Source: Escherichia coli
GTDB lineage: Bacteria; Pseudomonadota; Gammaproteobacteria; Enterobacterales; Enterobacteriaceae
Assembly: GCF_030013205.1 (NCBI RefSeq)
Contig: NZ_CP122648.1
Reading direction: 5' to 3' (one strand)
Length of the DNA stretch: 64,000 nucleotides
Positions within the stretch are counted from its first letter, which is position 1. Every line of letters starts with the position of its first letter. The position numbers are program-made. Positions 43,601 through 46,600 of the stretch are shown here, in pieces.

Positions 43601-46600
43601 CGAGGCTGTCATCGGGATATTCTTGAACTGGCGGATACGGTAAGTGAGCTGCGCCCCATCAAACATGCGTTTGATGCCGGTGTTAAGGCGCAAATAGGGA
43701 TTGATTATTAAGGGAAAGCACCTCAAAAGATCGTCTCTTGAGGTGCTAATTTTAGATACTGAATGGCTTAATTAGCCACGGCAAAATTAAGAAGAACTTG
43801 AATTTTATTCAAGTGTGCGGGATATTCCATATCATTATCCGCATTGACGTCTTCAATAAACATTATTAATTCAGTGATCAAATCATTAGCATCTTCATAA
43901 CTAATACCAGTCAGTTCTGGTGACGTTTGCGAGCCATAATTAATTGTCAGATTATTCATTACCGACAAAACCAGAATAAAATATTTGTGACATATATCGC
44001 AAGTTGTTCGGTTTCCTAAGGCATAGTACAGCATATTGAGCAATGCCAGTATTCGTCGATTTTGCACATCGTTCATAATGACCTCCTATAACATAACTCC
44101 GCTGGCAATAAGAAGTTTTGCCAGCTCCTCTGACGCCTGAAGACCACTAATAACTTGAGCACGCAGGATCTCATTCCTACGCTCTAAATCCGCTTTTGAA
44201 AGAGATTTATTAGAGTATAAATCTTGTAGATGATTTCCTTTATCCATGAAGGCATTAATAGCTTGTATTGCTGGAGCCGCCGGATCAGATGAACGCAATC
44301 TGCTTTCATTAAGATTAATTACTGCACTCAAAAATTCCTGCCTGCTCTTTAATGTCTTAAATTCTATATTTTTAGTATTTGCCCGGGCCTTATTATAGTA
44401 ATAAAAATTATTACTGATGTTCACAAAATTATTCCGATCCATTTGCTGCTGTTTCGTTGCTATATCATCAAGTAAATTTTGTAAATTTCTTTGAAGTCGT
44501 GGCCAGTCACTACCTACCGCTTTACCAACATTTTCTGATTTAATCTTCTCTTTGTATAATCCATTGAAATATTGAACTAAATCTTTAACAGCCACAGCTG
44601 ACTTAGTCAGTTTTTCACCTTCTGAAAAGCCAAGTAGTTTTTGGGCGTTGTTTGCGTGATCGAGCGCCTGATTAAGTAATATAATTTGTTTACTATCCTC
44701 AACATCCATACCCACCGTCAACAACTCCACATAGGAGCTCATACTGTTAACGATCTCAAGTGAAGCCAGTAGTTTTTGTTTTTCTGTTGTTGCCAATTGA
44801 ATTTTAGTAATATCTTTATACGATGTTTTGCCCCCTTTCTCTGATTGCAAACATAAGGACTCTTTATTAGTATTATTTTCCATAATCGTTTCATAATCAG
44901 GTCGCAATGCACAATCCGGATTAGTCGCATAAAAATTAACAAGGAAGTTTTCACGAGAAGCATAGTATTGTTTAAAGAAACTTGCATTCGCCGCAACCGC
45001 CTTGTTACCCGCAGTAATAACAGTTTCAGCTTGTTCATTCTTCAATGCTTCGGTTGCACAACCTGAAAGCATTAACAGCGATAGAAATATTCCACTATAT
45101 CTAATCATAACCCACCTCTTGACGTTGAGTTTATCTCAGATAATTAAATAGTAATGTGGCTATTTCCGGGTATTATTCATAAGCAAGTATGAAATTAAAT
45201 TAAAATACTGCGACTATTTATCATGCTTCAAATGAAGAAAAGGCCCCGCAGGGCCTTTATTTTATACTTATCTTAAATTAACCGTTATTATTACGTCCGC
45301 CAGAACGGCGACCACCGCTCACCTGGCTATGACGTTTCACCGCACGACGAATCTGATTCGCCTTCATACGACGACGGTCTTTTTCTACAGCGACTTTAGA
45401 GCTGGTTTCTGGCGGTAGCTCCACCAGTTCGCGCAGATAGTTAGTCTGGGCGAGGTCCAGCTCCGTCCAGCCACCGCGTGGCAGACCTTTTGGCAGTGGG
45501 ATATCACCGTAACGAACACGAATCAGGCGGCTTACCTGCACACCAACCGCTTCCCAAAGACGACGAACTTCACGGTTACGGCCTTCGGTCAGAGTAACGT
45601 TGTACCACTGGTTGATCCCTTCGCCGCCGCTGAACTTGATGGTTTTAAAGGCTGCCGGACCATCTTCCAACTGCACGCCACGACTCAAATCACGCAGTTT
45701 CGCGTCGTCAACCTGACCAAATACACGCACGGCATATTCACGTTCAACTTCACGGCTTGGGTGCATTAAACGGTTTGCCAGTTCACCATCGGTGGTGAAC
45801 AGCAGCAGACCACAGGTATTAACGTCCAGGCGACCCACGGCAATCCAGCGTGCGCCACGCAGTTTTGGCAGACGGTCAAACACCGTTGGACGTCCTTCCG
45901 GATCGTTACGGGTACACAACTCACCTTCCGGTTTGTAATAGGCCAGAACGCGACAAATTTGTTCAGCGGACTCACGTACCGAAATCAGGTGACCATCGAT
46001 ACGGATTTTCAATCCAGGGGTAACTTCAACGCGATCGCCGAGTTTAGCAATTTTGCCATCAACACTCACACGACCGGCTTCAATAATAGATTCGATTTCA
46101 CGGCGAGAGCCGTGGCCGGCACGCGCCAGCACTTTCTGTAGCTTTTCGCTCATAGAGCTTCCTTTTGGTGTCGCCTTCCCAGGCGTCTGATATGCTTTTG
46201 TGCAACAGTGAGTCAGAACTTACATCTGACTCACTGATAGTAAAGTCTGTTTGAACTCTTCAGGCCTTAAGTACTTAAGTAAACGACTCGACGTTTATCG
46301 GCCTGGCTTTGAGGCGCAACATACTACACTATCTTTATGGTTAAAGCTTGTTTCGATTAACATCAGCTTAATTACCAGCCACCACCGCCTCCGACACCCG
46401 CCCCGCCGCCAGCACCACCACCGGAATAACTTCGCCCCAACAAACTGGTATTGGCCCCCAGGCTCAGGTGCATCTGTAATGAAAACAAAACGCCACTACG
46501 GGCAATTTCCGGGGCGCTAACAGCCGCTGTGAGTGACGGCGTGATACGTGCTGCCCATTCTTTTCCAAGGTTTGCCGAGACTGCCCAACCTAGCAACGCG

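What the first reader, a model, noticed from the sequence alone, without database searches (positions are those of the whole stretch)
46206..46236. 12-bp perfect stem-loop in the rluB 5' leader
CAGTGAGTCAGA-ACTTACA-TCTGACTCACTG lies about 50-80 nt upstream of the rluB start codon on the transcribed strand side and is not followed by a U-tract, so it is not a simple terminator. It may be an RNase III or other processing site, or a translational control element. It is unusually long and perfect for a random intergenic hairpin.
Basis: seen in the sequence. Interest (0 to 1): 0.2.

Follow-up and report, generated by a model that had tools for sequence, protein, structure and literature searches.

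The report
Conserved stem-loop in rluB mRNA leader
The 12-bp hairpin is real, and it is the E. coli version of an old, previously undescribed RNA stem-loop that enterobacteria keep in the untranslated leader of the rluB (ribosomal RNA pseudouridine synthase) message; in most relatives it looks like a leader terminator, but in E. coli it no longer stops transcription.

Summary
Observation confirmed. CAGTGAGTCAGA-N7-TCTGACTCACTG lies at 46206-46236, 53-83 nt upstream of the rluB start codon (rluB is on the minus strand). It is single-copy.

In E. coli K-12, published SMRT-Cappable-seq puts the rluB transcription start 69 nt upstream of the hairpin. Most reads from that start run on to the rluB terminator. 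The hairpin is therefore transcribed and is not a terminator there.

It is not an E. coli oddity. Homologous hairpins sit at the same place in rluB leaders of 76 loci (55 distinct sequences) from Yersinia, Erwinia, Enterobacter, Kosakonia, Cedecea, Klebsiella-like and Escherichia genomes. They lie 12-18 nt upstream of an invariant GNRA-capped hairpin and the ribosome-binding site.

The stem covaries in 9 of 12 pairs and uses many G.U pairs, while the loop varies freely. This points to selection on an RNA helix on the rluB sense strand.

In 42 of 55 variants the helix is followed by 4-6 U, which looks like an intrinsic terminator. One clade also has a candidate antiterminator. Escherichia and Yersinia lack the U-tract.

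Best reading: an ancestral leader-attenuator hairpin that E. coli keeps as an autonomous structural or stability module. RNase III cleavage and occlusion of the ribosome-binding site are not supported. No Rfam family or paper describes it. Interest is modest.

The parts
46206..46236 (-). SL2, the reported hairpin: 12-bp perfect stem and 7-nt loop, at +78..+108 of the inferred rluB leader in this strain (+70..+100 in K-12)
   Evidence: covariance model R1 scores 41.2 bits on the minus strand against 26.6 on the plus strand; covariation
46188..46205 (-). Single-stranded A-rich linker UUGCACAAAAGCAUAUCA between SL2 and SL3. It is homologous to UUUUUGAAAGUAUACCA in relatives, and the U-tract is lost here
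   Evidence: alignments; tails tabulated
46170..46187 (-). SL3: GACGCC-U-GGGA-A-GGCGAC, a 5-bp stem capped by a GNRA tetraloop. It is invariant except for G/U at the second tetraloop position in every rluB leader examined, and unique in the window
   Evidence: (no variation in any of the 7 positions scored)
46158..46164 (-). Shine-Dalgarno AAGGAAG of rluB; the start codon is at 46151-46153
46261..46305 (-). SL1: CAGGCC...GGCCUG outer stem with inner AAACG/CGUUU stem. In this strain it carries an 8-bp tandem duplication (CTTAAGTA x2, 46266-46281) that K-12 lacks
46313..46326 (-). rluB promoter -10 (TAGTAT, 46321-46326) and inferred transcription start (C at 46313), by homology to the K-12 TSS at NC_000913.3:1326700
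   Evidence: SMRT-Cappable-seq tables of PMC6131387; coordinates mapped; promoter block conserved from Yersinia to E. coli
45278..46153 (-). rluB coding sequence (23S rRNA pseudouridine 2605 synthase)
46372..48267 (-). yciQ (DUF2207 membrane protein), the upstream neighbour. It is context only: the hairpin is not tied to it

Best explanation
The palindrome is a cis-acting RNA stem-loop (called SL2 here) within the roughly 152-160-nt 5' untranslated leader of the rluB mRNA. It is the Escherichia form of an ancient leader hairpin of Enterobacterales. Its lower stem is CAGUGAG/CUCAUUG, and it sits 12-18 nt upstream of an invariant GNRA-capped hairpin (SL3) and the ribosome-binding site.

In most relatives the helix is followed directly by 4-6 U, so there it most likely works as an intrinsic-terminator-type leader attenuator. 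One Enterobacter/Kosakonia-like clade also has a competing antiterminator helix. In the E. coli lineage the U-tract and any antiterminator are gone, and the stem has been rebuilt to 12 bp. RNA polymerase reads through it.

In E. coli it most likely persists as an autonomous, very stable structural module of the leader. The proposed role is to keep the long untranslated leader compact, as a barrier to 5'-end-dependent RNase E scanning and to Rho loading, without touching the ribosome-binding site.

Shown: the hairpin is real, transcribed, conserved and covarying; the constraint is strand-specific and at RNA level; relatives have a terminator-like context; there is read-through in K-12. Inferred: attenuation in relatives, and the stability or insulation role in E. 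coli.
For: Transcribed and read through. The K-12 TSS is at 1326700 and the hairpin at 1326769-1326799. Of 37 reads starting at that TSS, 18 end at the rluB terminator (1327761), 2 pass it and 5 end within 50 bp of it; no TSS-TTS pair ends at the hairpin. The 3'-end tables of PMC7815308 that were searchable here list no 3' end under yciQ, and under rluB only the one at 1327761.

Conserved. MAFFT alignment of 25 leaders: 9 of 12 SL2 pairs show double-sided changes, 84.6% of cells are paired against 30-47% when the partner is slid, and 0 of 500 shuffles reach the covariation score. RNAalifold independently predicts only SL2 and SL3. The covariance model finds it in 76 loci with 55 distinct sequences; the lower 10 pairs are paired in 86-100% of them, with several pair types per position.

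RNA rather than DNA. G.U at pair 3 in 33 of 55 sequences and U.G at pair 4 in 16 of 55; loop of 7 to about 22 nt with no conservation.

Still under selection in Escherichia. L008 differs from E. coli by two compensatory double substitutions plus one G.U.

Terminator-like in relatives. At least 4 U in the 8 nt after the helix in 42 of 55 sequences. The Kosakonia homologue is called terminator-like by the scan. A candidate antiterminator of -14 to -18 kcal/mol (z -2 to -3.7) appears in 11 of 52 distinct leaders, with a compensatory U-A to C-G change, and is absent in E. coli (z +0.5).

Autonomous in E. coli. Predicted accessibility of the translation initiation region is unchanged by disrupting or deleting SL2. 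The whole intergenic RNA is unusually structured (z -4.87).
Against: No experiment links the hairpin to any phenotype. The TSS rests on one published dataset plus promoter homology. Termination has not been measured in any relative, and many SL2 homologues are A/U-rich with long loops, so they would be weak terminators. Yersinia, the outgroup, also lacks the U-tract, so the ancestral state (terminator or plain hairpin) is ambiguous. Strong sequence conservation of the lower stem (pairs 1, 2 and 7 nearly invariant) suggests sequence-specific recognition that a pure structural-barrier role does not need. The metagenome sample was anchored on the GTATAY...SL3 motif and so over-represents the U-tract group. 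The pair counts were made on a model-fitted alignment.
Confidence: 0.5

Rival explanations
1. SL2, alone or together with the invariant SL3, is the binding site of a trans-acting protein. Candidates are RluB itself through its S4 domain (autoregulation by rRNA mimicry) or another ribosome-assembly factor. Binding would control termination, decay or translation.
For: The lower-stem sequence CA.UGAG/CUCA.UG is nearly invariant at pairs 1, 2 and 7 across Enterobacterales. SL3 is sequence-invariant in about 130 leaders and is a stem capped by GUGA/GGGA with an unpaired A on its 3' side. The RluB substrate helix 93 has a GUGA loop and a bulged A2602, and the S4 domain contacts the loop end (PMC3919597). 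SL2 sits at a fixed 12-18 nt from SL3.
Against: The SL2 loop is completely free in length and sequence. The upper stem of SL3 is 5 bp against 3 bp in helix 93, and SL3 has no lower stem and no target U, so it is a poor mimic. No autoregulation of any pseudouridine synthase was found in the literature searched. The small similarities of SL1 and SL2 to helix 93 (AACGUCG, GUUC) are absent in L008 and in other taxa.
Confidence: 0.15
2. The hairpin still acts in E. coli as a conditional, factor-dependent pause or attenuator despite lacking a U-tract.
For: It is homologous to terminator-like hairpins. 12 of the 37 reads from the TSS are not accounted for at the rluB terminator.
Against: There is no U-tract (2 U in 8 nt). 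No 3' end was reported at the site in the Term-seq or SMRT-Cappable-seq tables searchable here. No antiterminator partner exists in E. coli.
Confidence: 0.1
3. It is a neutral relic in E. coli: an ex-terminator stem that persists by inertia and has no present function.
For: The U-tract and antiterminator are lost. About 27% of E. coli genomes carry a different, short leader without this hairpin and do well. No effect on ribosome-binding-site accessibility is predicted.
Against: Two compensatory double substitutions separate E. coli from the L008 lineage, and the common E. coli polymorphism is a pairing-preserving G-C to G.U change. The stem became longer, not shorter. The short-leader genomes carry another hairpin at the same place.
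Confidence: 0.1
4. It is an RNase III (or other double-strand-specific) processing site in the rluB leader.
For: It is a perfect duplex in a 5' leader. The pnp and rnc leaders are precedents (established knowledge).
Against: 12 bp is well short of the ~22 bp substrate length (PMC6212723). Relatives have 7-10 bp stems with wobbles and mismatches. The supplementary cleavage tables are not held, so there is no positive evidence.
Confidence: 0.05
5. It belongs to yciQ, either as that gene's terminator or 3'-UTR hairpin, or as the edge of the inserted yciQ cassette.
For: In E. coli the hairpin is present or absent together with yciQ, and it lies about 15-20 nt from the right-hand boundary of that indel.
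Against: The same hairpin occurs in Yersinia with no cargo gene. It also occurs in Leclercia, where the genes between yciO and rluB include Hcp and a Tlde1-domain protein, and in many loci without yciQ. It lies downstream of the mapped rluB TSS. No 3' end is reported there.
Confidence: 0.03
6. It is a DNA-level element: an operator palindrome for a dimeric regulator, or a recombination or cruciform site at the yciO-rluB insertion hotspot.
For: It is a perfect DNA palindrome in E. coli and lies next to a locus with variable gene content.
Against: In most taxa the arms are not complementary as DNA (G.T at pairs 3, 4 and 5). The spacing between half-sites varies from 7 to about 22 bp. The covariance model scores the sense strand much higher. 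It is single-copy, so it is not a repeat family.
Confidence: 0.03

Closest known systems
Intrinsic-terminator leader attenuators (for example the S10 operon leader controlled by L4, the pyrBI leader and the trp leader)
   Same: A stem-loop between promoter and ribosome-binding site. In most relatives it is followed directly by a U-tract, and one clade has an upstream segment able to sequester the 5' arm as an antiterminator.
   Different: In E. coli there is no U-tract, no antiterminator and no 3' end at the site. No leader peptide is conserved, and no effector is known. Termination in the relatives is only inferred.
Stabilising or obstacle stem-loops in 5' UTRs (the ompA 5' hairpin; structures that block RNase E scanning from the 5' end)
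   Same: A very stable, autonomous hairpin in a long untranslated leader that does not overlap the ribosome-binding site.
   Different: It is internal (+70 to +100), not within a few nucleotides of the 5' end as in ompA. No half-life data exist.
RNase III processing hairpins in the pnp and rnc leaders
   Same: A perfect duplex in the leader of an RNA-metabolism gene.
   Different: The stem is about half the length RNase III needs, and homologues are shorter and imperfect.
Autoregulatory rRNA-mimic leaders of ribosomal-protein operons (S4/alpha, S8/spc, L1, S15)
   Same: A leader of a ribosome-biogenesis gene containing an invariant small hairpin (SL3, GNRA loop plus unpaired A) that loosely resembles the enzyme's rRNA substrate. 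RluB carries an S4 domain.
   Different: The mimicry is weak and untested, and it concerns SL3 rather than the reported hairpin.

Membership tests
Intrinsic (Rho-independent) terminator / leader attenuator | Stable stem-loop in the nascent RNA | tested here: met
   12-bp stem, -19.4 kcal/mol
Intrinsic (Rho-independent) terminator / leader attenuator | U-rich tract directly 3' of the stem | tested here: not met
   E. coli tail is UUGCACAA, 2 U in 8 nt. The feature is met in 42 of 55 homologues from other taxa
Intrinsic (Rho-independent) terminator / leader attenuator | Transcript 3' ends at the site in vivo | tested here: not met
   No 3' end at about 1326800 in the searchable Term-seq tables of PMC7815308 or the SMRT-Cappable-seq tables of PMC6131387. 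25 of 37 reads from the TSS reach the rluB terminator. Some stored supplementary files were truncated
Intrinsic (Rho-independent) terminator / leader attenuator | Alternative antiterminator pairing | tested here: not met
   RNAduplex z = +0.5 for E. coli. Present (z -2 to -3.7) only in an Enterobacter/Kosakonia-like clade
RNase III substrate | About two helical turns (~20-22 bp) of double-stranded RNA | tested here: not met
   12 bp; the length requirement is taken from PMC6212723
RNase III substrate | rnc-dependent cleavage in vivo | not testable with these tools
   The supplementary cleavage tables are not held
REP/BIME, MITE or other intergenic repeat family | Many copies per genome | tested here: not met
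   One place per genome (median 1) in 3691-4917 E. coli genomes; unique in the window
Any curated Rfam family | Match to a covariance model | tested here: not met
   Nothing at the hairpin up to E = 10 in the window. Gathering-threshold scans of 7 related loci found only the Trp leader elsewhere
RNA thermometer (ROSE / fourU type) | Hairpin sequesters the SD/AUG and melts near 37-42 C | tested here: not met
   The SD lies 42 nt downstream and outside the stem. The stem is predicted to stay folded at 80 C. Accessibility of the translation initiation region is unaffected
5'-terminal stabiliser hairpin (ompA type) | Stem-loop within a few nucleotides of the 5' end | tested here: not met
   It starts at +70 in K-12 and +78 in this strain
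Transcription-factor operator palindrome | DNA dyad symmetry with fixed half-site spacing, conserved as DNA | tested here: not met
   G.T 'pairs' in most homologues and spacer lengths from 7 to about 22 bp
Conserved cis-acting RNA structure (generic) | Transcribed, with base pairing kept by compensatory change across species | tested here: met

The most novel reading that the evidence does not exclude
The rluB leader (conserved promoter block, SL2, invariant GNRA hairpin SL3) is an undescribed cis-regulatory RNA of Enterobacterales. In it a trans-acting factor, most attractively RluB itself or another 50S-assembly factor, recognises the rRNA-like SL3. That recognition sets whether SL2 terminates transcription or otherwise controls the mRNA, coupling synthesis of a pseudouridine synthase to ribosome-assembly demand. 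E. coli would then be a natural variant in which the terminator half has been disabled.
Probability: 0.12. Interest if true: 0.65.

Novelty: new member of a known kind. Interest (0 to 1): 0.35.

Why it matters
Nothing is known about how genes for rRNA pseudouridine synthases are regulated. This analysis turns an isolated palindrome into a defined, testable leader architecture that is conserved from Yersinia to E. coli and is absent from Rfam and from the literature searched. The architecture is promoter, covarying SL2, A/U-rich linker, invariant SL3, then the ribosome-binding site.

Nature has also supplied useful variants: with or without the U-tract, with or without an antiterminator, and with the whole module swapped for a short leader in about 27% of E. 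coli. If attenuation is confirmed in Enterobacter or Klebsiella, it would be a new regulated leader for a ribosome-biogenesis enzyme. If not, the hairpin is one more structural 5'-UTR element of limited consequence.

Tried and rejected
1. Pairing of the SL2 5' arm with the start-codon region (CAGUGAG against GCUCNAUG; the 3' arm resembles the translation initiation region). Rejected: species with changed arms show no matching change there (sequences), and disrupting SL2 does not change predicted accessibility.

2. SL2 or SL1 as a mimic of 23S helix 93 (shared GUUC and AACGUCG). Rejected: the matches are short enough to be chance (about p 0.1 by my own estimate) and are absent in L008 and other taxa.

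3. A leader peptide. ATGs near the -10 element give M-K-E-L-Q-I-S-E-L-S in some loci, but the reading frame stops after 2-3 codons in others, and these ATGs lie upstream of the inferred TSS.

4. The hairpin as an integron attC-like or cassette-boundary site. The order of the GTT and AAC cores is the reverse of attC, and the hairpin occurs without cargo genes.

5. An antiterminator in E. coli: none found.

6. CsrA binding through GGA in the SL3 loop and in the SD. The loop is GUGA, with no GGA, in most taxa.

7. Data I could not obtain. Thomason 2015 and Ju 2019 are not held. No supplementary text is held for Choe 2022 or Altuvia 2018. The Cappable-seq 2016, ROSE 2023 and Kim 2012 supplements have no entry for the rluB TSS.

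8. Literature searches for rluB with yciQ, rluB with transcription start site, rluB alone and yciL alone found nothing on rluB regulation.

9. The covariance model did not detect the hairpins of the 'short' (Citrobacter, E. albertii, yciQ-less E. coli) or 'TATAAT-type' (Erwinia, Pantoea) leaders. Their homology to SL2, through a shared ...AAUG[stem]CRUUGAUU motif, is my reading of the sequences and is unproven.
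Full report
**The observation**

The window is E. coli DNA and is 100% identical to swine strain K_EC180 over the region. On the minus strand lie yciO (48295-48951), yciQ (46372-48267, DUF2207) and rluB (45278-46153).

The reported inverted repeat is exactly there: arms 46206-46217 and 46225-46236, 12 nt, 100% complementary, with a 7-nt loop. It sits in the 218-nt yciQ-rluB spacer, 53-83 nt upstream of the rluB ATG. On the transcribed strand it reads CAGUGAGUCAGA-UGUAAGU-UCUGACUCACUG and is followed by UUGCACAAAAGC, so there is no U-tract.

It is unique in the window even with three mismatches. There is one copy per genome in 3691-4917 E. coli genomes. Perfect hairpins of at least 12 bp occur twice in the window and never in 60 randomisations. 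The whole spacer RNA is unusually structured (z = -4.87).

**Is it transcribed?**

In K-12 MG1655 (NC_000913.3) the hairpin is at 1326769-1326799 and the rluB ATG at 1326852. The SMRT-Cappable-seq tables of Yan et al. 2018 (PMC6131387) list a primary transcript that starts at 1326700, ends at 1327761 and covers only b1269.

- 37 reads start at that TSS. Of these, 18 end at the terminator, 2 pass it and 5 end within 50 bp of it.
- A second start at 1326297, inside yciQ, also gives an rluB transcript.
- The TSS lies 8 nt downstream of TAGTAT, inside a promoter block conserved from Yersinia to E. coli.

The hairpin is therefore at +70..+100 of a 152-nt leader. In the window strain it is at +78..+108 of a 160-nt leader, because of an 8-bp duplication in the upstream hairpin. 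Most polymerases read through it. The 3'-end tables of Adams et al. 2021 (PMC7815308) that were searchable here list no 3' end under yciQ, and under rluB only the one at 1327761. No Rfam family matches.

**A first impression that turned out wrong**

About 27% of complete E. coli genomes lack yciQ. They have a 100-nt yciO-rluB spacer without this hairpin, and homology resumes 15-20 nt downstream of it. None of 80 other species recovered with RluB has yciQ upstream of rluB. This made the hairpin look like part of an E. coli-specific yciQ insertion.

Two results overturned that view. First, YciQ homologues of 51-57% identity sit at the same place (rnm-yciO-yciQ-rluB) in Klebsiella-like genomes. 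Second, listing the 130 nt upstream of every rluB showed the same hairpin in many genomes with other cargo or none. These include Yersinia, Erwinia, Enterobacter, Kosakonia, Cedecea, Leclercia, Shimwellia, Pseudocitrobacter and Pluralibacter.

**The family**

The common architecture is:

- a promoter block, ..GTGTA(G/A)TATGTGCGSCCACG..;
- a variable 5' leader;
- SL2, CAGUGAGUU-[loop]-AACUC(A/G)UUG;
- a linker, usually UUUUUGAAAGUAUACCA;
- SL3, GACGCC-U-G(U/G)GA-A-GGCGAC, invariant everywhere;
- ACC..AAGGAAGCUC.AUG.

The evidence for the SL2 helix comes from three analyses.

- On a structure-blind MAFFT alignment of 25 leaders, the 12 SL2 pairs are 84.6% paired, against 30-47% when the 3' partner is slid. 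Nine pairs show double-sided changes, and none of 500 shuffles reaches the covariation score.
- RNAalifold independently predicts SL2 and SL3 and nothing else.
- A covariance model of SL2 hits only rluB leaders.

I then ran a metagenome scan anchored on the linker plus SL3. After it, the model finds 76 loci with 55 distinct sequences. The lower ten pairs are paired in 86-100% of them. Pair types at the most variable positions are:

| Pair | Pair types (count of 55 sequences) |
|---|---|
| 3 | GU 33, AU 11, GC 7 |
| 4 | UA 23, UG 16, CG 8, GC 5 |
| 5 | GC 40, GU 7, AU 6 |
| 6 | AU 40, GC 6, UG 4 |

The abundance of G.U pairs shows that the constraint is on an RNA helix of the rluB sense strand, not on a DNA palindrome. 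So do the free loop (7 to about 22 nt) and the higher model score on the sense strand (41.2 against 26.6 bits in the window).

Selection on the helix continues within Escherichia. A separate Escherichia lineage (L008) has CAGUGGGGCAGG-UGAUAAA-UCUGCCCCACUG, which is two compensatory double substitutions plus one G.U relative to E. coli. The common E. coli polymorphism is C to U in the 3' arm, giving a G.U pair. The exact window-type 47-mer is in 2641 records, and 1051 differ at 1-2 positions. The perfect 12-bp stem is therefore a derived state of an older, wobble-containing helix.

**What it does in relatives**

In 42 of 55 distinct homologues the helix is followed by at least 4 U in the next 8 nt: UUUUUGAA, UUUUAGAA or UUUUUCGA. 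The consensus scan calls the Kosakonia copy terminator-like, with 14 pairs and the tail TTTTTGAAAG. In the Klebsiella-type leaders the stem is G+C-rich (CAGGGUG...CGCCCUG-UUUUU).

In an Enterobacter/Kosakonia/Cedecea-like clade (11 of 52 distinct leaders), leader nt about 7-21 can pair with the 9 nt upstream of SL2 plus its 5' arm. The energy is -14 to -18 kcal/mol and z is -2 to -3.7 against shuffles. One U-A to C-G compensatory change is seen between subgroups. That is the layout of an antiterminator/terminator attenuator.

The exceptions without a U-tract are Escherichia, Yersinia and three single taxa. Because Yersinia is the outgroup, whether the U-tract is ancestral remains open. Termination in the relatives is an inference; no transcript-end data for them were available.

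**What it does in E. coli**

E. coli has neither a U-tract nor an antiterminator, and polymerase reads through.

- The stem is about half the ~22 bp that RNase III accommodates.
- It does not contain or touch the ribosome-binding site. Predicted unpaired probability of the SD/AUG region is 0.52-0.53 whether SL2 is intact, disrupted on either arm or deleted.
- It is predicted to stay folded at 80 C, so it is not a thermometer.

What remains is an autonomous, very stable module in a long untranslated leader. The helix is still kept by compensatory change. I therefore favour a structural or stability role: keeping the leader compact, hindering RNase E scanning and Rho loading, and insulating the SL3/ribosome-binding-site module. 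This is an inference with no direct test.

A protein-binding role is the main rival. The near-invariance of pairs 1, 2 and 7, and of all of SL3 at a fixed 12-18 nt distance, suggests sequence-specific recognition. SL3 (a GNRA loop, mostly GUGA, with an unpaired A on the 3' side) loosely recalls helix 93, the RluB substrate, whose loop end is held by the S4 domain. The resemblance is weak: the upper stem is 5 bp against 3 bp, and there is no lower stem and no target U.

**Verdict**

The element is a new member of a known kind: a cis-acting leader stem-loop of attenuator ancestry. It is not described in Rfam or in the papers searched. On its own, the E. coli hairpin is of modest interest. The conserved rluB leader as a whole is a reasonable candidate for experimental follow-up.

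Noticed in passing
window 46170-46187 (-), and every rluB locus examined (L007-L151): SL3, GACGCCUG(G/U)GAAGGCGAC, lies 8-12 nt upstream of the rluB SD. It is 100% invariant apart from the second tetraloop base from Yersinia, Serratia and Pantoea to E. coli, while everything around it changes. It folds as a 5-bp stem with a GNRA tetraloop and an A.A mismatch. Its function is unknown, and it loosely resembles the RluB substrate helix 93.
   Followed up: partly
window 46154-48294; L004, L007, L009-L016, L027, L093-L097: The yciO-rluB junction is a gene-insertion hotspot. yciQ is present in about 73% of E. coli and absent in about 27%, and absent in E. albertii and Citrobacter. Distant yciQ homologues (51-57% identity) sit at the same site in Klebsiella-like genomes. 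In Leclercia the genes there include Hcp and a Tlde1-domain protein, and K. pneumoniae MGH78578 has 5 genes there.
   Followed up: partly
window 43768-45108 (-): Two hypothetical genes (a 340-aa putative lipoprotein and a 102-aa protein, neither with a Pfam match) are inserted between rluB and cobO/btuR. They are present in 1237 of 5426 complete E. coli genomes and absent in K-12.
   Followed up: partly
window 46266-46281: An 8-bp tandem duplication (CTTAAGTA x2 on the plus strand) sits inside the upstream leader hairpin SL1. It is absent from K-12 and from the ten other E. coli leaders aligned.
   Followed up: no
window 27901-27930: This is the only other perfect 12-bp hairpin in the window: ACGGATGATTTG-CTGTTT-TGCAAATCATCC(G). 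It starts 17 nt after the end of a 249-aa plus-strand ORF (27135-27884) and also lacks a clear U-tract.
   Followed up: no
K-12 NC_000913.3 1325258 and 1326297 (inside yciQ; equivalent to about window 46720-47760): Published data list a bicyclomycin-sensitive (Rho-dependent) 3' end inside yciQ and an internal TSS in the 3' part of yciQ that also yields an rluB transcript. Transcripts from the rnm promoter cover only rnm-yciO. yciQ therefore seems poorly transcribed in K-12.
   Followed up: no
L022, L028, L041, L052, L107, L111, L120, L125 and others (rluB leaders): In an Enterobacter/Kosakonia/Cedecea-like clade, leader nt about 7-21 (UCAUUGUGUGUGAC) can form a 14-bp helix with GUUACAUAUCAGUGA, which overlaps the 5' arm of SL2. 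This is a candidate antiterminator competing with the SL2 terminator.
   Followed up: partly
L057, L058, L069, L072, L078, L081, L082, L084, L086, L020, L035-L038, L048, L050, L051: A third type of rluB leader has a strong GTTACA-17-TATAAT promoter. A constant 25 nt (26 in L035) after the -10 element comes a conserved ...TAA....RTTGATTTT motif that resembles the 3' arm and tail of SL2. Its homology and meaning were not established.
   Followed up: no
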